Origin: a virus
Taxonomy: Duplodnaviria; Caudoviricetes
Strand: one strand, 5' to 3'
Length of the DNA: 35,502 nucleotides
Virus record (IMG/VR): IMGVR_UViG_3300020381_000025
Span: 1 to 35,502 of that record
Below the pieces are notes generated by a model, which saw nothing but the letters and a program-made list of their open reading frames with translations, did not search any database and was not told where the DNA came from. This document shows, piece after piece, positions 15,337-24,054 of this stretch (position 1 is the first letter of the stretch; every line of letters begins with the position of its first letter). The position numbers and the translations under genes are program-made.

Positions 15337-17925
15337 TTATTTCTCGATACAACTAATAACAGTTATAACAGATGTTTGAGTTGTCTGAGCAAGTTGAGAT
15401 GCATCATCAACCTTAGTAAATTTAAGAACTGGTAATAATTTAGCACCAGCTCCAGTGTCACTATTTATTGTTATTTCTGGAAGTTTAGTAAACCCAAATC
15501 CACCATTAACAACACTCGCACCTACAATCAATCCATTCTGAATATTTAATTCAATTTGTGCTTGGCCAGGTTTTTGTATTGTATCAGCATTCGCATCGCC
15601 TGGCAAAGTATTACCAGCAGAATCAACAGATCCACCACCTATTGAAGCTGTATCATTATCCCCATATCCAAACCCTGTATTTTCAACAACAACATCTGCT
15701 ACCTCTGTAAGGTATGATTGTTCTCCATCATAATTTTCATTTGGATCAGGTATGACTTCTTGTACATTACCATCTATATCTGTTTCAGTTGTATTTGATA
15801 GATATTCTTGGCCAGGGGAGGTGATTACAACACCAACAACACCTAAACTTGATCCATTTGGATCAGGGACGTATAATTCATCCAAATCACTCTCACCACC
15901 AACCGTTATATTAAAACCATCAAAACCACCAGCACCAGCACCAACACCACCAACACCACCACCAGCACCAACACCACCAGCACCACCAGCACCAACACCA
16001 CCAGCACCAACACCACCAGCACCAACACCAGTGCCGCCACCTACTCCGTCAGCACCAACACCAGTACCAGTAGATCCAACCACAACAGGAAAAGCACCAG
16101 CTATCAAACCTTGTCCACCTTCACCATTAACGATCACAGGTATTTCACCAACAGTTATTGGTATTCCACCTGTACCACCAGCGGTCACAGGAATGCCTCC
16201 TGTACCACCAGCAACTACTAAATCTCCATCTGCTGTAACTGATTGTCCACTAGAAGTTGTAACTGGTATTCCTCCTTGTCCACCAGCATTAACAGGAAGA
16301 TTATTTGCAGTAATTTGTGTTCCTCCAACACCACCCACAGATACATTTGTTCCATTTGCAATCGGTGAAACAGTCCCCATCACTGGATAACCTCCAGCTC
16401 CATAACCTTTATCACAACTATCAAAGAATGAAAGTAAGGGTGGTTCCTCAAATCCAAATCCTGTGCCATTAATTGCAACACCAATAACATTACCTAAAGC
16501 ATTTACAATTGCAGATCCAGTTGCACCTTGACCACTACTTCCTATAAAGTCTACTCGTGGTGGGCCACATTTAAGAACATTAGTTTGACAATTTGGTGCA
16601 GATGGTTTTGCTGGAATGGCATTATCGAGACTATCTAAAAGAGGATCTATCAAAGAATTTAATCCAATTTTATTAATTATATTATCAAAACTATCCTCAG
16701 TTGCTTTTGAAACTCCGTTTTTTGAAGAATATGAAGTTGCTGGTGGACAATTTAGAGCATCACAATCAAGAACATTTGTAATAATATTTGCATATTTAAT
16801 TGCTTTTGAAAATGTTGAACTTGGAAGTCCAATACCACCACCTTGAATATTGTTTAATTGTCCAAATATATTTCCAAGGTTTGTATCTAAAATATTATTA
16901 ATCTGACCAAACATATCACTCAAAAAGTTTTCAATACCACAAACAGGTACATCTAAAACTTGTCCGATCATATTCTCTAAACTCTTAGAAAGATAATCTA
17001 AAAGAGCATCTTGAATTTTTTCAATATTGCAAAAAATTACATCAGTTAAAGATTTAGTTGCCTGACCTACAGGTGCCTGTAGTGTTTTAGGTGTTTTATC
17101 TTTTAAAGTTAGGTTTAGTTTATCTAAAGTATCTTGTATTAACCATGATCTGGCACGACGAACTAGTTTTGTTGTCGAGTTATGAATTTTATTTGTAGTT
17201 AATTTTATCTCTTCTTGAATATCAATAATACCACCGTAAATAGGATCAACATATGAATTTTGATCATTTAATTGTTGAAGAGTTTCCAACTTTCGAGTAA
17301 AGTCTTTTATTGTATTACTTATCTTTGATATCTCATTATCTTCACAAGCAGTGAAATTGTCGATGGTGATATTTGTAGATGCTTCTTTTTGTTTTGCTGC
17401 GATTGTTTTTACCAATTCACCAGGCGAGAATCCACCACCCCAAGGTGATGAAGGTGCTTGACGTTGTTTACCAGCTCTTTGTCTTACTTTAGGTGGAGTA
17501 TATGGAGTAAAACATGTTTGTTTTTTTGCATTAAATTGATCAGTTGTTAGATCATCTGGGATAAAAGTTTGTTTAAATAAAGTTCCAAATATAACTGGTT
17601 GTTGGCCATCTTCACCATCAAAGAAAAATCCAACTACAACTTCTCCACCTTGATACTGCAAGGTGGCTCCACAACCACCAGTGGTTGTAGTGTTTGGTGG
17701 TAAAAGAACATGAGCTAGTGGTAGTTCATTATCTGGTAAATCATCTGCACATCCATGATATCCAATAATACGAACTCTACATCTAAACGAATAGATATCC
17801 TCTCCATCGTCCGCTTGTTTTTTCTCTAAAGAATCTCCCCACTCTCCTTTATCTGGATCGGTGACTTGACCGATCCACCATTGCATTGGATCTTTTCCTA
17901 TAAAATTGGTTGATGGTTGATACAT
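15337..17925 (-). CDS. gp5: Baseplate hub/central spike gp5-like protein (OB-fold N-domain, no recognisable lysozyme domain)
   Basis: WWIGQV...RCRVRIIGYH...LPLAHV...VVVGFFFDGEDGQQPVIFG matches the T4 gp5/VgrG OB-fold. Confidence 0.85.
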   Translation of the reverse strand: MYQPSTNFIGKDPMQWWIGQVTDPDKGEWGDSLEKKQADDGEDIYSFRCRVRIIGYHGCADDLPDNELPLAHVLLPPNTTTTGGCGATLQYQGGEVVVGFFFDGEDGQQPVIFGTLFKQTFIPDDLTTDQFNAKKQTCFTPYTPPKVRQRAGKQRQAPSSPWGGGFSPGELVKTIAAKQKEASTNITIDNFTACEDNEISKISNTIKDFTRKLETLQQLNDQNSYVDPIYGGIIDIQEEIKLTTNKIHNSTTKLVRRARSWLIQDTLDKLNLTLKDKTPKTLQAPVGQATKSLTDVIFCNIEKIQDALLDYLSKSLENMIGQVLDVPVCGIENFLSDMFGQINNILDTNLGNIFGQLNNIQGGGIGLPSSTFSKAIKYANIITNVLDCDALNCPPATSYSSKNGVSKATEDSFDNIINKIGLNSLIDPLLDSLDNAIPAKPSAPNCQTNVLKCGPPRVDFIGSSGQGATGSAIVNALGNVIGVAINGTGFGFEEPPLLSFFDSCDKGYGAGGYPVMGTVSPIANGTNVSVGGVGGTQITANNLPVNAGGQGGIPVTTSSGQSVTADGDLVVAGGTGGIPVTAGGTGGIPITVGEIPVIVNGEGGQGLIAGAFPVVVGSTGTGVGADGVGGGTGVGAGGVGAGGVGAGGAGGVGAGGGVGGVGAGAGGFDGFNITVGGESDLDELYVPDPNGSSLGVVGVVITSPGQEYLSNTTETDIDGNVQEVIPDPNENYDGEQSYLTEVADVVVENTGFGYGDNDTASIGGGSVDSAGNTLPGDANADTIQKPGQAQIELNIQNGLIVGASVVNGGFGFTKLPEITINSDTGAGAKLLPVLKFTKVDDASQLAQTTQTSVITVISCIEK
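15925..16070. repeat. Low-complexity GVGAG/GGVGAG-coding tandem repeats within gp5
   Basis: Imperfect accaccagcaccaac 15-bp units. Confidence 0.8.
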
Positions 17926-17929
17926 CTAA

Positions 17930-18157
17930 TTAATCGTCATATACTAAACATTCTGGTTCATCTGGATGCAAATCACAGAATATTTCCAAAGCATTGGGAT
18001 CATGGTGGTCTCCCGCCTTGATTTCTTCTTTATGATGTTCTACATACTCTTCTAACTCATGCAATTCTTCTTTTGCATGTCTGCGTGCTGCTGGGTTTGA
18101 TTGTGGATCTTCGATAATTTTCTTATCGTGTTCCATATGGTCTTCGATTGATTTCAT
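17930..18157 (-). CDS. cp12: CP12 Calvin-cycle inhibitor (auxiliary metabolic gene)
   Basis: C-terminal LEIFCDLHPDEPECLVYDD CP12 signature. No N-terminal Cys pair, as in marine picocyanobacterial and phage CP12. TTAAATA late-promoter-like site at 18178-18184. Confidence 0.95.
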   Translation of the reverse strand: MKSIEDHMEHDKKIIEDPQSNPAARRHAKEELHELEEYVEHHKEEIKAGDHHDPNALEIFCDLHPDEPECLVYDD

Positions 18158-18180: not shown

Positions 18181-19419
18181 TTAAGCGGTAAATACATCAC
18201 GAATTAACGTAAGTTGTGTTTCTGACTTTCCGCCACCAATAAGATGTCTTAATTCAGATATTATATAATTTCCACTAGGATCGTTAGTTTTTTCATTTCC
18301 ATATGAACCTGTTTCAGCACTTTCATCATCTTTTTTAAGAGGTAATTTAATTTTAATCAACTCACCAACTCTTAAATCGGGATTAATTGGAATTGATACT
18401 TGTAAGGATTGTGAAAATAATAAGTTATTTCTAATATAAGATTTATTTTGATAAACGGCAAGCTCACTTTCGGGTTGAGTATCACTTTTTTTCGATCCTT
18501 TTTGTGCAACTCCGAGATCACTTACTCGAAGCATTAATCGGGTTGGATAATTCTCAATACCGTTTAATAATTTAACTGGTTTTTTCATTTTTAAATCTGT
18601 AATTTTAAAATCAACTTCACTCATAGTTTGATTTTCAATATCAACATATATGGTTCTATTTGCATACATTCCCAGTCTACAGTTAAGACCAATATCATTT
18701 GATTGATTTAAATTATTTTGTAAAATTTTAAAACCCTTTGCATCTTTATCATATGGTTTATCTGTTTGAGTATATGTAAAACTTGGTTTTTGATCTAATA
18801 ATTTTTCGATTGATTTAAAATTATACCCATCTAAATTTTCATAAAATAAGAAACCAAAATTCTTTGTAGATGATTGTGTTTTTGGACACAACCATTGAAT
18901 AGTATCAAAAGGTCTTTTTAAATTGCCTACAAACGAGTAAGAATTAGCAGCGCTATCTTTTGTTAACTCTTTACTACTTTGAATTCCTTTATCATCACCT
19001 ATGAGTAACTCAAAAACAGTTTGTGAAACATTACCAGTAAATTTTTTATTTACTCTCGATGTTTCATTTATAATTGTTTCAACCGATACAAACTCTAAAG
19101 TAGCTATTTGTTTTTTAGTTTCAGTGATAACATTTCTAACAGAGTTTAACATCAACTTATGTTTTTTAGATGTAAGTTTAAAGTCATCATATCCATCAAT
19201 TTTAACTGTTACATCTATATACTCTCCACCAGTAATTCCTACTCTACTTATCACTTGATCAATATCAACAAAAGTTAGAGTCATTGCTATAGTAGGACTA
19301 TCAAGACTCTCATAATAATCAATGATTGGGTTTCCACGAGCTATATCATAGTCCTCCTTTAATGAGGATCCCTCATTAGGACGTAACATGCATTTAGTGA
19401 TAAGAAATCTATTTTCCAT
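18181..19419 (-). CDS. Baseplate hub protein (gp27-like / late-control D-like, 412 aa)
   Basis: YYESLDSP, KRPFDTIQWL, GFLFYENLDGYNFKSIEKL, LRVGELI, SGNYIISELRHLI motifs, located upstream of gp5. Confidence 0.7.
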   Translation of the reverse strand: MENRFLITKCMLRPNEGSSLKEDYDIARGNPIIDYYESLDSPTIAMTLTFVDIDQVISRVGITGGEYIDVTVKIDGYDDFKLTSKKHKLMLNSVRNVITETKKQIATLEFVSVETIINETSRVNKKFTGNVSQTVFELLIGDDKGIQSSKELTKDSAANSYSFVGNLKRPFDTIQWLCPKTQSSTKNFGFLFYENLDGYNFKSIEKLLDQKPSFTYTQTDKPYDKDAKGFKILQNNLNQSNDIGLNCRLGMYANRTIYVDIENQTMSEVDFKITDLKMKKPVKLLNGIENYPTRLMLRVSDLGVAQKGSKKSDTQPESELAVYQNKSYIRNNLLFSQSLQVSIPINPDLRVGELIKIKLPLKKDDESAETGSYGNEKTNDPSGNYIISELRHLIGGGKSETQLTLIRDVFTA

Positions 19420-21866
19420 TATGAAATCATTGAAGCTATTTCTGGTGGTAATCCAGATTTAGAATTTGAAGTTATTGATAAGTATTTTTTAGATGATAGA
19501 AGTTTTCTAAAAGGTATGGGAGCCTCTGTCACTTTTATTTCTGCATCTGCAACTTGTGGGGGACTTGCTTGAATTAAAGGAGATGGATTATTATTTGGTG
19601 GAATTGGATTATTAATTTGATTATTAATTTGATTTTGTGCGTTTAAAACTTGTATTGCTTGATTATTCGCATCTACAGATTGAATAATAGTGCTAGATAA
19701 ATCCTTCTCATTACTTTCTATTATTGGTTTAATAGTGCTAGATAAATCCTTCTCATTACTTTCTATTATTGGTTTAATAGTGCTAGATAAATCCTTCTCA
19801 TTACTTTCTATTATTGGTTTAATAGTGCTAGATAAATCCTTCTCATTACTTTCTATTATTGGTTTAATAGTTTCCATATTATAACTTTCCATTATTTCTG
19901 GACTAAATGTATTTCCCATATCTATTCCCATCTTTACAACCATTTTTTGTTTTTCAGTCAAAGGCTGGCCAGGAGTAAAAGGTTCATCACCGAGTAATTC
20001 ACCAGATCCTTTACTTGTAATTGATCCATCAGGATTTACAGTGGTATTCATCGGAATTTTACTCTTGTAATCATACAGTTCATTTTTATCTTCGTTAAAT
20101 TCCTGTACATGAGGATTGTTTTGATAAGCTTCTTTTTTCTTTTTATTTTCCATTCTCTTTCGTATGCCAAACAAATCCATCTTACCTTTCTTATCAAGAT
20201 CAAGCATATTACCACTCAAAGCATCTATAAAACCTTTTCCAACTCTTTGTATTTTGCTATCACCCCTCTTATCAAAATCAAAAACTCCACCTGTTAGAGA
20301 GTCTGCCATGCCTGTAAGATTACGCATGACTCCAGATGGTTTTCCACCTTTCTTATCAAGATCAAGCATATTACCACTCAAAGCATCTATAAAACCTTTT
20401 CCAACTCTTTGTATTTTGCTATCACCCCTCTTATCAAAATCAAAAACTCCACCTGTTAGAGAGTCTGCAACTCCACCAATACTACTAAATATATTTCCCT
20501 CTTTATCAAGGTCTTGTTCCCTCTTTAAGTCCTCATCACTTATGGGAGAAAATACACCAGCTTCAATATTTTCCGACTTCATATACTCTTCCCTTGTTAA
20601 TGGGCCACCAGAATTTTTATAATCCTCTAATTTTTGTGAATCGATACTACCTTCACCTGACATCATTATTCTAGCTTGTATTGACGTTCTTTGTTTAATA
20701 GTCATCTTTTCACCAGGCTTGTATAATTCACCACCAAGAAGAGTTCCCGATCCTTCACTTGTAATTGATCCATCGGGGTTTATAGTGGTTTCCATTTTAA
20801 GTTGATCTCTTTTACTTTCTAGATCATCTTTCTTTTGTTGAAACTCTAGTTTTCTTTCATTATTACCAATATAGTTACCGTCTTTATCGTAAAATTTATT
20901 TTTATCCTTAGTTTTTCTTGAGCCAGGCCTACCATCAAAATCACGAATCTTATCAAAAAAGTTAGTGATAAAATTGCCTTCCTTTACTTGATCTTTTTCA
21001 CCCTCTACTTCCTTAATTTCATCTTTTTTACCAAATTTTCTACCAAGCATGCCACTAATTCTAGCAAATGGATTTATTGTTTCAAATAAATTAAATTTAT
21101 TTTCTTTTTTCTCTGGTTCTATTGATTCTCCTCTTCCACTTGTAAGATTTAATTCCTGTTTTATCTCTGACTTAATTTCATCCTTTAAATCGTTTTTAAT
21201 ATCTTCTTTTTTACCACCTCTTTTATCAAAGTCAAATTTATTACCTGTAAAGGCATCAGCCAAACCACCAAACATTCCTGTCAATCCTCTTGGTCTATCT
21301 TCACCAATTAATTTTGATCTTTTTTCTATATCTTTTGCACTATTGTTTCCTCCTGGCAAAAGACTTTTCTTCAAACCTAAAGGATTCCTCAAAAAACCCA
21401 TTAATTTAGTGGCTCCAAGGATTCCTACAGATGCAAGTAATGTTTTTAAACCTCCTCCTCCTTTTCCTAATGATGGAGATAAACCTTCACCCTGTTCACC
21501 TTGAGTACCTTGAGTACCTTGAGTACCTTGAGTACCTTGATCTCCTTGATCACCCTTTTCACCTTTAAGAGCCTCAGCTCTTTCTCTCATTTCTTCTTTT
21601 TGTTTTTTATCTTGTTCTTCAAAAAGTTTATCTTCTCTTTCATTTTTTTCTACAATAATATAATTATTAATTTCTTGAATATCTGATTGCATTCCCTCTA
21701 TCAACGTTGATAGATTATCAATTATAGATTTTTGTTCTTGAATAACACCTAAATTAGAGTTGGATGTTTTTAGAGCACGATTAGCCACCTTGTCAATTGA
21801 TTTAATTGACTCAAAAAAATTACCTATGGTTATTTTTTTCGGTTGTTCTAATTCTTCTTCATCCAT
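19419..21866 (-). CDS. Repeat-rich virion protein, candidate tape measure / gp29-like (815 aa)
   Basis: N-terminal coiled coil, short Gly-X-Y tract, multiple internal repeats, located between the gp26/gp51-like genes and the hub gene. Confidence 0.55.
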   Translation of the reverse strand: MDEEELEQPKKITIGNFFESIKSIDKVANRALKTSNSNLGVIQEQKSIIDNLSTLIEGMQSDIQEINNYIIVEKNEREDKLFEEQDKKQKEEMRERAEALKGEKGDQGDQGTQGTQGTQGTQGEQGEGLSPSLGKGGGGLKTLLASVGILGATKLMGFLRNPLGLKKSLLPGGNNSAKDIEKRSKLIGEDRPRGLTGMFGGLADAFTGNKFDFDKRGGKKEDIKNDLKDEIKSEIKQELNLTSGRGESIEPEKKENKFNLFETINPFARISGMLGRKFGKKDEIKEVEGEKDQVKEGNFITNFFDKIRDFDGRPGSRKTKDKNKFYDKDGNYIGNNERKLEFQQKKDDLESKRDQLKMETTINPDGSITSEGSGTLLGGELYKPGEKMTIKQRTSIQARIMMSGEGSIDSQKLEDYKNSGGPLTREEYMKSENIEAGVFSPISDEDLKREQDLDKEGNIFSSIGGVADSLTGGVFDFDKRGDSKIQRVGKGFIDALSGNMLDLDKKGGKPSGVMRNLTGMADSLTGGVFDFDKRGDSKIQRVGKGFIDALSGNMLDLDKKGKMDLFGIRKRMENKKKKEAYQNNPHVQEFNEDKNELYDYKSKIPMNTTVNPDGSITSKGSGELLGDEPFTPGQPLTEKQKMVVKMGIDMGNTFSPEIMESYNMETIKPIIESNEKDLSSTIKPIIESNEKDLSSTIKPIIESNEKDLSSTIKPIIESNEKDLSSTIIQSVDANNQAIQVLNAQNQINNQINNPIPPNNNPSPLIQASPPQVADAEIKVTEAPIPFRKLLSSKKYLSITSNSKSGLPPEIASMIS
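19685..19871. repeat. Four perfect 45-bp tandem repeats (IKPIIESNEKDLSST)
   Basis: Unit taatagtgctagataaatccttctcattactttctattattggtt starts at 19685, 19730, 19775 and 19820. Confidence 0.95.
20184..20468. repeat. Identical 123-bp direct repeat, period 162 bp
   Basis: 20184-20306 equals 20346-20468 (ADSLTGGVFDFDKRGDSKIQRVGKGFIDALSGNMLDLDKKG). Confidence 0.9.
21498..21560. repeat. 9-bp tandem repeat encoding a collagen-like GTQ/GDQ tract
   Basis: accttgagt x4 plus degenerate copies. Confidence 0.85.
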
Positions 21867-22059
21867 ACTTTTGAACGCCCTCTTGTTGTTGTCTCTTTAG
21901 ATTTTCCTTTTCAATATGATCTATAAGAAGAGTTAGATAAATATCTCTTTCCCAAGGCATCATATTTTCAAGTTCCGTCAAGCTGTATTTATGGTATTGC
22001 ATGAGAGCGAAATTGATACGGTAATAGGATTCAAGATCCTCTCGTGCAATACTTAGCCG
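21859..22059 (-). CDS. 'gp51'-like small ORF in the -1 frame of the gp26-like gene, probable frameshift extension
   Basis: Missed by the ORF track. Reads RLSIAREDLESYYRINFALMQYHKYSLTELENMMPWERDIYLTLLIDHIEKENLKRQQQEGVQKYG*. The YxxNFALMQxHKYSLTELENMxPWER motif matches cyanophage 'gp51'. First ATG is only at 22002, inside the motif. Confidence 0.8.
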   Translation of the reverse strand, partial: RLSIAREDLESYYRINFALMQYHKYSLTELENMMPWERDIYLTLLIDHIEKENLKRQQQEGVQKYG

Positions 22060-22778
22060 AAAAAATCAGCAAGACCCTCCAAAACAACACTATTCTTTTG
22101 TTTTGTGTTCGGATTTATAACTTCAATAGTGTGAGATAATTTAGGCATGGATGCAAAAAACTTCTCAACTTCCTTATATTGTTTTGAATTTAACTGTTCT
22201 ATAAACTTAACTCTTTCATCAGGAGTATAGTCTTTAGCTTCCCAAGCATCCTCCTCTGTATAAACAGTATCCATACAGTCAGCAACAACTTTAAAAGTTT
22301 TATCAACGATAGTCTTTGACTCATCCTCAACATCAAAATTAGATTCGATAAATTGATTCAATGATGGATACTTCATCCGAAGAGTCATTTTATCATCTAA
22401 AACAATATCAGTCTTATGATCTTTTGGTTTAACCACCTTAATTTCATCGACATATACTGTTACTGGAACTTGTGTTTTTTTATCGTCAGGACATGTTATG
22501 GTCATTTTAATGTCCTCTCCGATTGATTTAGCACGAATATTTAGAAACAAATATTCAATATCAAATGTAGGAAGACTATCAACATCAATTCCTCTCGTTA
22601 AAATACACTTTTTCAAAACATCTGTTACAGAATTTGTAATTTCGTTTTGATCTTTTGATTCTAGAGCTAATATTAAAATCTTCTCTTCTTTAACAAGGAA
22701 AGGTCGATATTTAATTTTTTTGTTTGATGAAGGCAACTTCAACTCATACGTTGGAGTTTCAATTGTTGGTAAGGGCAT
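22053..22778 (-). CDS. gp26: Baseplate hub assembly protein gp26-like (241 aa)
   Basis: MPLPTIETPTYEL.LPS...KYRPFLVKEEKIL, FDIEYLFLNIRAKSIGE, LEGLADFF. CTAAATA late promoter at 22798-22804. Confidence 0.85.
   Translation of the reverse strand: MPLPTIETPTYELKLPSSNKKIKYRPFLVKEEKILILALESKDQNEITNSVTDVLKKCILTRGIDVDSLPTFDIEYLFLNIRAKSIGEDIKMTITCPDDKKTQVPVTVYVDEIKVVKPKDHKTDIVLDDKMTLRMKYPSLNQFIESNFDVEDESKTIVDKTFKVVADCMDTVYTEEDAWEAKDYTPDERVKFIEQLNSKQYKEVEKFFASMPKLSHTIEVINPNTKQKNSVVLEGLADFFG
22059..22080 (-). other. Candidate -1 programmed frameshift signal (GGAGG-N10-T TTT TTC)
   Basis: In-frame X XXY YYZ heptamer at 22065-22059, one codon before the stop, with an internal SD-like GGAGG at 22080-22076. 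Confidence 0.65.
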
Positions 22779-22796
22779 AATGTCTTGTTCAGTGTT

Positions 22797-23582
22797 TTAT
22801 TTAGTAAGTAGTCCACCTCTTTGTGTTGTTTTTCCTAAAGGTAATCCGCCTTGGCCACCCTGTGTACGAACTTGATCATTTGAATTTACAACTCCATTTG
22901 ATGTATTAAGAACAGCTTGATTAAAATCTACAGAATTAAAATTCGTGAAGAATCTATCATAAGCAAACTGTACACTACATTGTAACACATTTGAATCACC
23001 ATAGGCAACTCTCATTGATGTAAGATCAGTTGGCCAAATATTTACAAACTCATAACTAGTCATATTGGATTGATAACTTCCAGTTTTTTTAGTGAAAGTA
23101 TCTCTTTCAAATTTTGTTATGTGAATAATTTCTTTATAATCTTCTGGATAATTAAATCTTGAGTATGCACTCATATCCCTTCTATTTGTTTGAATTGGAT
23201 TGATATAACTCATCCAAGTTTCTAAAACCTCTAGAATCACCATATCAGCATCACAATAAAAAGTAAGATTTAAAGGTGGAAAGTTTCTCATATTTGGAAA
23301 CTGCTCTTGAATACCTTGATGATGTCCAGTTGCAGTATCAGTATTATAATTTGTGCCTGGAATCTCAGCTTGTGTACATAACAGAGACATTTTTTCAGTA
23401 AAATTTCTTCCTTGAGTTCTATTCTTATTCGGTATTGTTTTTAACCATGTTTCATAATTTCCAAATGAAAAACTTACTTGATAAAGAGTATCAAGAGAGG
23501 CTCTTGACAAACTATCTCTACTATCTAAAGTTGTACCTCTAAATATATCTGATCTTCTTGGAAATAAATTATTTTCTGACAC
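22797..23582 (-). CDS. Tail tube-like protein (gp19/gp54 family, tail tube initiator)
   Basis: LLCTQAEIPG, LNLTFYCD, LETWMSYI, RFNYPEDYK, YEFVNIWP, VAYGDSNVLQCSVQFAYDR. GTG start. Confidence 0.75.
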   Translation of the reverse strand: MSENNLFPRRSDIFRGTTLDSRDSLSRASLDTLYQVSFSFGNYETWLKTIPNKNRTQGRNFTEKMSLLCTQAEIPGTNYNTDTATGHHQGIQEQFPNMRNFPPLNLTFYCDADMVILEVLETWMSYINPIQTNRRDMSAYSRFNYPEDYKEIIHITKFERDTFTKKTGSYQSNMTSYEFVNIWPTDLTSMRVAYGDSNVLQCSVQFAYDRFFTNFNSVDFNQAVLNTSNGVVNSNDQVRTQGGQGGLPLGKTTQRGGLLTK

Positions 23583-23613
23583 AATAAATAAATTTAAGTT
23601 GTTATTATTATAT

Positions 23614-24054
23614 ATGAGCTATAAAGGGATATATAGACCTTCCAACCCTAAAAAGTATAAGGGTGATTATCGTAATATTATTTATCGATCTTTATGGGAG
23701 AGAAAATTCATGAATTACTGTGATTTGAATGAAAATATACTTGAATGGGCGTCTGAGGAATTTTGGGTTCCTTATAAAGATCCAACAACCAATCGAGTTC
23801 GTAGATATTTTCCAGACTTTTTTATTAAATATAAAGATAAAGATGGTGATATAAAAAGATCTGTGATTGAAGTTAAACCACTAAGAGAAACATTAGAACC
23901 AAAAGTCACAAAGGGTAAATCACGAAAAACATTGATTAATGAATCTATGACATATATTAAGAATCAAGCAAAATGGAAGGCAGCTAGAGAGTTTTGTGCA
24001 GATCGCAAATTAGAATTTAAAATTATGACTGAGAAAGAATTAGGAATTCGATGA
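23614..24054 (+). CDS. gp4: Head completion nuclease gp4
   Basis: MSYKGIYRPSNPKKYKGD...YRSLWERKFM..CD...WASEE...RYFPDF...IEVKP...NQAKWKAA. Start placed at ATG 23614 after late promoter ATAAATA (23584-23590). Confidence 0.9.
   Translation: MSYKGIYRPSNPKKYKGDYRNIIYRSLWERKFMNYCDLNENILEWASEEFWVPYKDPTTNRVRRYFPDFFIKYKDKDGDIKRSVIEVKPLRETLEPKVTKGKSRKTLINESMTYIKNQAKWKAAREFCADRKLEFKIMTEKELGIR

What the first reader, a model, noticed from the sequence alone, without database searches (positions are those of the whole stretch)
21859..22085. Candidate programmed -1 frameshift fusing gp26-like and 'gp51'-like ORFs: a lambda G/GT-style tail chaperone switch in a T4-like cyanophage
Seen: the gp26-like gene ends GAG GGT CTT GCT GAT TTT TTC GGC TAA, which contains an in-frame X XXY YYZ heptamer (T TTT TTC, 22065-22059). 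An SD-like GGAGG lies 10 nt upstream. The -1 frame is open for 66 codons (RLSIAREDLESYYRINFALMQYHKY...PWERD...) and has no ATG until the middle of its conserved motif. A small AGGAT/ATCCT hairpin lies 18 nt downstream. Established: an internal SD about 10 nt 5' of the slip site stimulates -1 shifting in E. coli dnaX. Many long-tailed phages make two tail assembly chaperones (G and GT) by a -1 shift in a gene between the tail tube and tape measure genes. Inference: the order here is tube-like gene, gp26, -1 ORF, candidate tape measure, hub, spike. The products would be 241 aa and about 306 aa, and 'gp51' would not be an independent gene. I do not recall this being described for T4-like cyanophages.
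Basis: partly seen in the sequence, partly recalled or inferred. Interest (0 to 1): 0.9.

Follow-up and report, generated by a model that had tools for sequence, protein, structure and literature searches.

The report
Frameshift in cyanophage tail-chaperone gene
A tail-assembly gene (gp26) of this marine T4-like cyanophage ends in a slippery TTTTTTC run that nearly every relative keeps, so some ribosomes very likely slip back one base and make a longer second protein, the pair that phage T4 encodes with two genes (26 and 51); a 2022 paper appears to have predicted this for T4-like phages already.

Summary
The gp26 gene (241 aa) ends in T TTT TTC (22065-22059). The -1 frame opens at that first T and runs 66 codons past the heptamer. 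GGAGG lies 10 nt upstream. Of 313 related loci (22-100% identity), 312 keep the slippery site; 308 show the tail in -1, none in another frame. In 48 clusters below 50% identity, 45 of 45 terminal Phe-Phe pairs are slippery (18.3 expected). T4 gp51 is a gp26 domain plus this tail, and T4 gp26 is the domain alone. Four slippery-type genomes have one such gene; T4 has two. The model's four best structural matches are tail assembly chaperones. The likely products are 241 and 306 aa; no protein evidence was seen. Two papers citing Vladimirov et al. 2022 (not readable here) credit it with the T4 two-gene pair and poly-T -1 sites in T4-like phages. This scan reported the same thing in at least 8 other genomes. 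New member of a known kind.

The parts
22053..22778 (-). gp26-like gene = short chaperone form (G / TAC-N), 241 aa; residues about 1-95 model as a tail-assembly-chaperone fold
   Evidence: phrog_150 E 1e-74; PF12322 E 2e-70
22076..22080 (-). internal Shine-Dalgarno-like GGAGG, 10 nt 5' of the heptamer; candidate -1 stimulator
   Evidence: GAG in 46 of 64 clusters vs 16.7 expected; 9-14 nt for -1 stimulators
22066..22068 (-). TGA in the -1 frame directly before the heptamer: no shift or start can lie further 5'
22059..22065 (-). slippery heptamer T TTT TTC (Asp238 third base, Phe239, Phe240)
22053..22055 (-). zero-frame stop TAA, one codon after the heptamer (one codon in 290 of 307 loci)
21994..22052 (-). 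predicted 59-nt stem-loop starting 6 nt 3' of the heptamer; candidate 3' stimulator; also pairs the UG of the internal AUG
21859..22059 (-). -1 frame extension (T / TAC-C), 66 aa, homologous to the C-terminus of T4 gp51; annotated elsewhere as a short 'gp51' gene
   Evidence: (phrog_634 E 1.5e-27; phrog_150 positions 236-276)
22000..22002 (-). internal ATG (residue 20 of T) that gene callers use for a 47-aa 'gp51'; conserved residues L9, N16, F17 lie 5' of it
22797..23582 (-). upstream tube-fold gene, probably gp54-like (tube initiator); context
   Evidence: same-strand tube-like ORF upstream in 240 loci
19419..21866 (-). 815-aa downstream gene, candidate tape measure (lead only); its start overlaps the end of T
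   Evidence: no tape-measure hit; PF25671 cluster at 0.77, below the bar; long genes one or two places downstream in ValKK3, Cr30 and phiN3 hit tape-measure PHROGs weakly
18181..19419 (-). tail protein in the hub (gp27-like) position; context
   Evidence: phrog_350 'tail protein' E 1e-75; gp27 equivalence inferred from position
15337..17925 (-). gp5-like hub/spike gene; context
   Evidence: phrog_1922 E 2e-74

Best explanation
The gp26 gene ends in a conserved T TTT TTC between an upstream GGAGG and a predicted downstream stem-loop, so a minority of ribosomes likely slip back one base there and make a 306-aa protein beside the 241-aa one; the pair would act as the short and long tail assembly chaperones that T4 encodes as gp26 and gp51. 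Shown by sequence: the site, the frame relation, their conservation, and the homology of both halves to T4 gp51. Inferred mechanism: with both Phe codons in the P and A sites, two tRNA-Phe re-pair from UUU UUC to UUU UUU. The anti-SD hybrid 10 nt behind and the stem 6 nt ahead stall and push the ribosome, as in E. coli dnaX. The shift skips the TAA and reads 66 more codons. The A-site pair goes from Watson-Crick (UUC) to wobble (UUU), which would keep the rate low and give many G per GT, as in lambda (30:1); the C is enriched (70 of 95 vs 30.7 expected). Inferred function, by analogy with lambda: the N-terminal chaperone domain coats the tape measure, and the T tail links it to a tube-fold subunit. 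The short 'gp51' of cyanophage annotations would then not be an independent gene.
For: Site kept in 312 of 313 loci with a complete G. T in -1 in 308 of 313, in other frames 0; the 5 without a hit are 3 contig ends, Yut2 and D532. Codon test against each gene's own usage: 45 of 45 slippery vs 18.3 expected in 48 clusters below 50% identity (P 3e-22 if independent), 17 of 17 vs 2.8 in genes that prefer TTC, and 11 of 98 for internal Phe-Phe controls. No -1 stop in the first 35 codons in 307 of 307 loci, against a +1 stop in 307 of 307. The PxER-type motif sits at a fixed distance from the heptamer (87 of 95 clusters). T codon 4 is Leu in 66 of 96 clusters (CTC or CTT in 51), Met in 20. SD-like codons are enriched. 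The 3' window folds better than shuffles in 34 of 94 clusters vs 1-17 of 94 at six control offsets. T4 gp26 = PF12322 alone; gp51 = PF12322 (1-201) plus a tail matching T. One PF12322 gene in 4 of 4 slippery-type genomes, two in T4; T-even gp26 ends are not slippery, 0 of 4. The top four structural matches (Z 7.8, 7.5, 7.4, 4.9) are tail assembly chaperones.
Against: No protein, ribosome-profiling or reporter evidence was seen here or in the papers found. 31 of 95 clusters have an ATG within the first 8 T codons, often overlapping the stop as TAATG/TGATG, which is also the -1 frame and the classic layout of translational coupling. In the window the codon at that position is ATT, invariant in 65 of 65 close relatives. 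Vibrio phage D532 lacks the heptamer and has TAATG. The 3' structure is weak or absent in 60 of 94 clusters and its pairing differs between clades. Within the close clade the outer stem is invariant rather than covarying (one A-U for G-C change), so it is not independent proof. Structural Z values are under 8, the level the tool calls common, and Foldseek found nothing at E <= 0.001. P values assume independent clusters. U_UUU_UUU is described as less shift-prone than A_AAA_AAG in E. coli.
Confidence: 0.88

Rival explanations
1. T is a separate small protein made by translational coupling: ribosomes stop at TAA and restart in the -1 frame at an overlapping ATG (relatives) or at ATT 22050 (this clade), and T joins G in trans.
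For: An ATG lies within 8 codons in 31 of 95 clusters, and many records annotate a gene starting at the stop. SD motifs near gene ends can serve coupling. D532 has no heptamer and has TAATG.
Against: 33 of 95 clusters have no ATG/GTG/TTG in the first 15 codons, and codon 4 is mostly CTC/CTT. Coupling does not explain T TTT TT[C/T/A] in 312 of 313 loci against codon usage. GGAGG is 25 nt from the ATT, too far for initiation (own knowledge of SD spacing). Early ATGs are mostly predicted paired (89 of 132 above 0.5). T4 needs the covalent fusion form, gp51.
Confidence: 0.06
2. The same fusion protein, but made by transcriptional slippage: RNA polymerase adds one U in the T run, and the edited mRNA is read normally.
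For: The site is a T run, and 25 of 97 clusters have all seven heptamer positions as T. Slippage makes dnaX products in Thermus.
Against: 72 of 97 clusters have only six T within the heptamer, and C is selected at its last position. The run begins exactly in codon phase. Ribosome-level signals flank it (SD at 10 nt, stem at +6). An RNA-run contig of a relative spans the junction without an indel (X20 21979-22099), though contigs drop rare variants. Polymerase slippage usually needs runs of about nine (own knowledge).
Confidence: 0.04
3. An assembly error or broken gene: a full-length gp51 split by an indel in the T run.
For: In-frame fused proteins of 294-357 aa exist in the protein collection (P0005, P0006, P0009, P0010, P0019, P0023).
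Against: Independent contigs of three runs span the junction without gaps. 312 of 313 loci have the same layout. The fused entries come from one contig each, and several carry truncations or run-ons typical of indel errors; their DNA could not be checked.
Confidence: 0.01

Closest known systems
T4-like tail assembly chaperones TAC-N / TAC-NC (Vladimirov, Gautam, Davidson 2022, Virology 566:9, PMID 34826709). Seen only as a reference title and through two citing passages: PMC10885494 and PMC12846349.
   Same: Short and long chaperone forms in T4-like phages. Some groups carry them as two genes, others by a -1 shift on a poly-T site at the end of TAC-N.
   Different: I could not check whether cyanophages, the SD at 10 nt, the 3' stem-loop or the fold match were reported there. 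My recollection (no call) is that the paper is purely bioinformatic.
Phage T4 gp26 (208 aa) and gp51 (249 aa), hub assembly chaperones (Leiman et al. 2010, PMC3004832, passages)
   Same: G aligns end to end with gp26 (HHalign 99.1%, E 2e-18) and with gp51 residues 7-185 (93%). T aligns with gp51 207-244 (E 1e-4; blastp 31% to T4, 36% to Aes508).
   Different: T4 has two divergent genes on opposite strands and no slippery end. This phage has one gene with a slippery end.
Lambda gpG/gpGT and the conserved tail-chaperone -1 frameshift (Atkins et al. 2016, PMC5009743, passages)
   Same: Shift at the 3' end of a chaperone gene lying between a tube-fold gene and a long tape-measure candidate. Neither product is expected in the virion. 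The N-domain matches HK97 gp13 (2OB9), YqbN (3KLU), Rbstp2171 (3FGX) and PLE1 TAC (5IR0).
   Different: The site is U UUU UUC with tRNA-Phe, not the tRNA-Lys site of lambda. G is about twice the size of those chaperones, with an extra C-terminal part that has no clear PDB match. The upstream gene is gp54-like. The review says this frameshift is conserved 'except T4'.
E. coli dnaX -1 cassette (internal SD, heptamer, 3' stem-loop; PMC5009743)
   Same: Three-part layout, with SD spacing of 10 nt inside the 9-14 nt range.
   Different: Different heptamer. The shift extends the protein rather than truncating it, and the efficiency is probably far below 50%.
Sullivan et al. 2010, cyanophage core genes (PMC3037559, passages; Fig. 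S3 not seen)
   Same: Noted that cyanophage and marine vibriophage gp51 lack the first ~200 aa of T4 gp51.
   Different: Offered no explanation ('frameshift' occurs 0 times in the main text). The missing part is supplied by gp26 under this reading.

Membership tests
Programmed -1 ribosomal frameshift (bacterial, dnaX type) | In-phase X XXY YYZ heptamer conserved beyond amino-acid need | tested here: met
   312 of 313 loci; 45 of 45 vs 18.3 expected; internal control 11 of 98
Programmed -1 ribosomal frameshift (bacterial, dnaX type) | Conserved open -1 frame beginning at the site, without its own start | tested here: met
   0 of 307 with a -1 stop in 35 codons; opens at the heptamer in the window; no early start in 33 of 95 clusters, an early ATG in 31 of 95
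Programmed -1 ribosomal frameshift (bacterial, dnaX type) | Internal SD 9-14 nt 5' of the site | tested here: met
   GGAGG at 10 nt in the window; GAGG at 10 nt in 46 of 97 clusters; GAG 46 of 64 vs 16.7, Leu ending in G 43 of 71 vs 19.3. Stimulation itself untested.
Programmed -1 ribosomal frameshift (bacterial, dnaX type) | 3' stem-loop or pseudoknot a few nt downstream | tested here: inconclusive
   Strong in the window (z -4.56) and its clade. z < -2 in only 34 of 94 clusters; pairing differs between clades; little covariation
Programmed -1 ribosomal frameshift (bacterial, dnaX type) | Transframe protein or shifted footprints detected | not testable with these tools
   Only assembled contigs were available
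Tail assembly chaperone G/GT (TAC-N/TAC-NC) | TAC fold | tested here: met
   Top four of 48,161 chains are TACs: 3FGX Z 7.8 rmsd 3.8 over 86; 2OB9 Z 7.5 rmsd 4.0 over 85; 3KLU Z 7.4 rmsd 4.1 over 86; 5IR0 Z 4.9 rmsd 3.6 over 80. Z under 8, so this rests on the four agreeing.
Tail assembly chaperone G/GT (TAC-N/TAC-NC) | Short and long forms sharing the N-terminus | tested here: met
   At sequence level: T4 gp26/gp51 architecture and a single PF12322 gene in 4 of 4 slippery-type genomes
Tail assembly chaperone G/GT (TAC-N/TAC-NC) | Position between tail tube and tape measure genes | tested here: inconclusive
   Upstream gene has the tube fold but is probably gp54-like. The downstream 815-aa gene has no tape-measure hit in the window; weak hits in 3 of 8 relatives tested
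Tail assembly chaperone G/GT (TAC-N/TAC-NC) | Spiral oligomer that binds the tape measure; T binds the tube subunit; absent from virions | not testable with these tools
   Needs experiments; oligomer not modelled
T4 gp26/gp51 family (PF12322, phrog_150, phrog_634) | Profile match above cut-off | tested here: met
   PF12322 237.6 bits vs cut-off 24.5; phrog_634 E 1.5e-27 for T
T4-like cyanophage (Kyanoviridae-like) | T4-like core genes plus photosynthesis/carbon genes | tested here: met
   psbA, transaldolase, phoH, CP12, ssDNA-binding protein, helicase loader; G is 58-61% identical to S-CAM9 and P-SSM2. The record is a fragment, 17% complete.

The most novel reading that the evidence does not exclude
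The T4-like chaperone shift is driven by a complete dnaX-type cassette on U UUU UUC: an internal SD at 10 nt plus a stem-loop at +6 that has been rebuilt with different pairing partners in different clades and also buries any false start of the T frame. The C of UUC is selected to hold the G:GT ratio low. This would be one of the most widespread recoding events in ocean viruses (about 21,000-22,000 stored IMG/VR stretches match the G patterns by the tool's estimate) and works on cyanobacterial ribosomes; gp26's N-domain is a true HK97-type chaperone fold.
Probability: 0.5. Interest if true: 0.45.

Novelty: new member of a known kind. Interest (0 to 1): 0.33.

Why it matters
It corrects the annotation of the short 'gp51' in hundreds of cyanophage, vibriophage and other T4-like genomes (678 phage records match the T frame at E <= 1). 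It explains the truncation that Sullivan et al. 2010 noted and left open. [quoted passage not shown] 2010, testable as a GT-type chaperone. The window offers an unusually clean three-part cassette for a reporter assay. The principle is not new: lambda G/GT is textbook, and the T4-like case was apparently predicted in 2022.

Tried and rejected
(2) In-frame fused proteins from the protein collection (33 hits; 11 read) as evidence of natural fusion: each from a single contig, several with indel-like damage, DNA not checkable; not used. (3) Complex prediction of T (1-60) with the upstream tube-fold protein (15-220): score 0.00, no verdict, no evidence either way; the true tube gp19 is not in this fragment. 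(4) Folding residues 1-99 alone, without an alignment: pLDDT 43, unusable, not searched. (5) Foldseek against PDB: nothing at E <= 0.001, 2OB9 only at rank 13. Foldseek against viral models returned gp26-like relatives. The C-terminal part of G has no clear PDB match. (6) Pfam scan of 82 T peptides: only weak hits far below significance (best E 0.002). (7) ESM Atlas for the 815-aa gene: no named hit at 0.9 or more. (8) Promoter/terminator scan 21500-23800: 7 promoter-like sites vs 12.2 expected, none within the junction. (9) RNA runs hold only 5-8% of the words and are contigs; no expression or slippage rate could be read. (10) Nine literature searches (listings only unless named) showed no experimental test in a cyanophage; most subscription papers are outside the library, and the 2022 paper was not held. 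Rows left out: 4 of 317 loci (the T-even loci L093-L096) gave no profile hit on the forward strand and were analysed separately; loci with too little downstream DNA were dropped from the frame and folding counts, hence n = 307, 94-97 or 45-47.
Full report
1. Observation. The window is a 35.5-kb fragment (17% complete) of a T4-like cyanophage: psbA, transaldolase, phoH and CP12 lie among T4-like core genes. The gp26-like ORF 22778-22053 (241 aa; PF12322 E 2e-70) ends GAT TTT TTC GGC TAA. The heptamer is at 22065-22059 and GGAGG at 22080-22076, with 10 nt between. The -1 frame is closed by a TGA ending at 22066, opens at the first T of the heptamer, and gives 66 residues after it. Its first ATG is residue 20. 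Contigs of three runs not flagged as a possible source span the junction with no gap, so it is not an assembly error.

2. The 69 nt after the heptamer fold into one long stem-loop, 22052-21994, starting 6 nt downstream: -21.6 kcal/mol, z -4.56, 0 of 200 shuffles as stable. In 47 distinct versions from 78 close loci, the outer 8 pairs are kept in 47 of 47. Third codon positions in the outer stem are 98% conserved against 77% elsewhere. This is conservation rather than covariation, so it is supportive only.

3. Conservation. I collected 317 loci: four scans by protein (patterns from the body of G, none from its last codons) and 18 annotated records. 313 gave a complete G, 22-100% identical to the window's, in 98 clusters at 70% and 48 at 50% identity; the four T-even loci were treated apart. 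A T profile hit the -1 frame in 308 of 313 and no other frame; the misses are three contig ends, Yut2 and D532. T TTT TT[C/T/A] lies in phase in the last 14 codons of 312 of 313; only Vibrio phage D532 lacks it. The Phe-Phe end could be a protein constraint, so I tested codons against each gene's own usage. Slippery were 307 of 307 terminal Phe-Phe pairs (156 expected), 45 of 45 in the 50% clusters (18.3 expected, P 3e-22 assuming independence), and 17 of 17 in genes that prefer TTC (2.8 expected). Internal Phe-Phe pairs of the same genes are slippery in 11 of 98. The -1 frame has no stop in its first 35 codons in 307 of 307 loci, the +1 frame has one in 307 of 307, and the -1 frame is closed within 12 codons upstream in 257 of 307. 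Anti-SD pairing peaks in the windows ending 6-9 nt before the heptamer; the Glu codon there is GAG in 46 of 64 clusters (16.7 expected), and the last heptamer base is C in 70 of 95 (30.7 expected). The 65-nt window at +4 has z < -2 in 34 of 94 clusters against 1-17 of 94 at six other offsets (25 shuffles each); the pairing differs by clade and 60 of 94 do not reach that mark.

4. Against a separate gene. An ATG occurs within 8 codons in 31 of 95 clusters, often as TAATG or TGATG, which is also the -1 frame and is how several records annotate a short gene. This is the real rival. But 33 of 95 clusters have no ATG, GTG or TTG in 15 codons. T codon 4, Met in P-SSM2 and Ile in the window, is Leu in 66 of 96 clusters. 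Conserved residues L9, N16 and F17 precede the window's ATG. The distance from the heptamer to the PxER-type motif is fixed in 87 of 95. Early ATGs are mostly predicted paired (89 of 132).

5. What the products are. T4 gp26 is PF12322 alone (1-206 of 208). T4 gp51 is PF12322 (1-201) plus a tail of about 48 aa; the same holds for Phi1, Aes508 and phage 133. The window's T matches that tail (blastp 31-40%, E 5e-5 to 1e-8; HHalign gp51 207-244). G aligns with gp26 end to end. G residues 1-240 plus 66 of T give 306 aa with the layout of gp51. P-SSM2, Syn10, PX29 and ValKK3 each have one PF12322 gene, T4 two, and the four T-even gp26 genes do not end in slippery codons: frameshift and duplication are alternative solutions. 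The AlphaFold model of G (pLDDT 94.6) matches over residues 1-95 the chains 3FGX (Z 7.8), 2OB9 (7.5), 3KLU (7.4) and 5IR0 (4.9), the first four of 48,161. All four are called tail assembly chaperones in passages of PMC9603447 and PMC12987554. Z under 8 is common and Foldseek found nothing significant, so the weight lies in the four agreeing. The tape-measure identity of the 815-aa downstream gene is a lead only.

6. Mechanism. Shown: site, phase, frame, conservation, homology. Inferred: tandem tRNA-Phe slippage, stimulation by the SD (9-14 nt is the range for -1) and by the stem, low efficiency, and lambda-like roles for G and GT. Not shown: any protein. Odds: ribosomal -1 shift 0.88, coupled separate T 0.06, transcriptional slippage 0.04, artefact 0.01, other 0.01.

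7. Prior art. Sullivan et al. 2010 noted the missing ~200 aa of cyanophage gp51 without explanation (passages; Fig. S3 not seen). Leiman et al. 2010 list gp26 and gp51 as hub assembly chaperones (passages). Atkins et al. 2016 say the G-T shift is conserved except in T4 (passages). Vladimirov, Gautam and Davidson 2022 (PMID 34826709) was not held. I saw its title and two citing passages: some T4-like phages carry a short gene and a fused long gene instead of shifting, and poly-T -1 signals are known in TAC-N genes of T4-like phages. That the paper found the shift conserved in several T4-like groups is my recollection of its abstract, not a call. Its text and supplements may already cover cyanophages. 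Nine searches listed no experimental test. This scan has reported the same arrangement in at least 8 other genomes; those notes are leads, not support.

8. Verdict. A real and very well supported programmed -1 frameshift candidate, a new member of a known kind. What this locus may add is a clean three-part cassette, the breadth of the survey and the fold match. Interest 0.33.

Noticed in passing
L091:3190-3260 (Vibrio phage D532, OZ196211.1): The only locus of 313 without the heptamer. It ends TCA CTT TTC AAG TAA with an ATG overlapping the stop in the -1 frame and a divergent T-like ORF: a possible switch to coupling or to a one-tRNA slip on T TTC.
   Followed up: partly
L295 and L303, end of G: The heptamer is T TTT TTA (Phe-Leu), a different but still slippery variant: the site is kept although the amino acid changes.
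   Followed up: partly
L157, L231, L239: The zero-frame stop has moved 8 codons past the heptamer while T keeps its register, so the position of the stop is not what fixes the T frame.
   Followed up: partly
L081:3721-3755 (P-SSM2) and relatives L104, L115, L156, L200, L203, L217: A different, compact 10-12-bp hairpin starts at about the same +5 position; in P-SSM2 it pairs the ATG annotated as the gp51 start.
   Followed up: partly
window 19419-21866 (-): The 815-aa tape-measure candidate carries a 45-nt repeat x4.2 (19685-19871, 100% identical), a collagen-like 9-nt repeat x4.8 (21498-21540) and longer repeated peptide blocks; no family names it.
   Followed up: partly
L083, L084, L098, L178, L182, L186, L190, L212, L216 and others, directly after T: In about a fifth of clusters the first ORF after T is short (about 80-140 aa); in Melnitz-2, Cr30 and phiN3 it lies between T and a long tape-measure candidate. 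Identity unknown.
   Followed up: no
L088 (PhiW-14), L091 (D532), L097 (RSP15): Here the G-T locus lies next to ribonucleotide reductase genes, with no tube gene directly upstream, yet PhiW-14 and RSP15 keep the slippery site.
   Followed up: no
window 17930-18157 (-): A CP12 gene (PF02672) is inserted between the hub and spike genes.
   Followed up: no
window 15337-17925 (-): The gp5-like gene (862 aa) has a long Gly/Val/Ala-rich repeat in its second half.
   Followed up: no
proteins P0005, P0006, P0009, P0010, P0019, P0023: In-frame G+T fusions in the protein collection, each from one contig: probably indel errors in the T run, though a true fused lineage is not excluded.
   Followed up: partly
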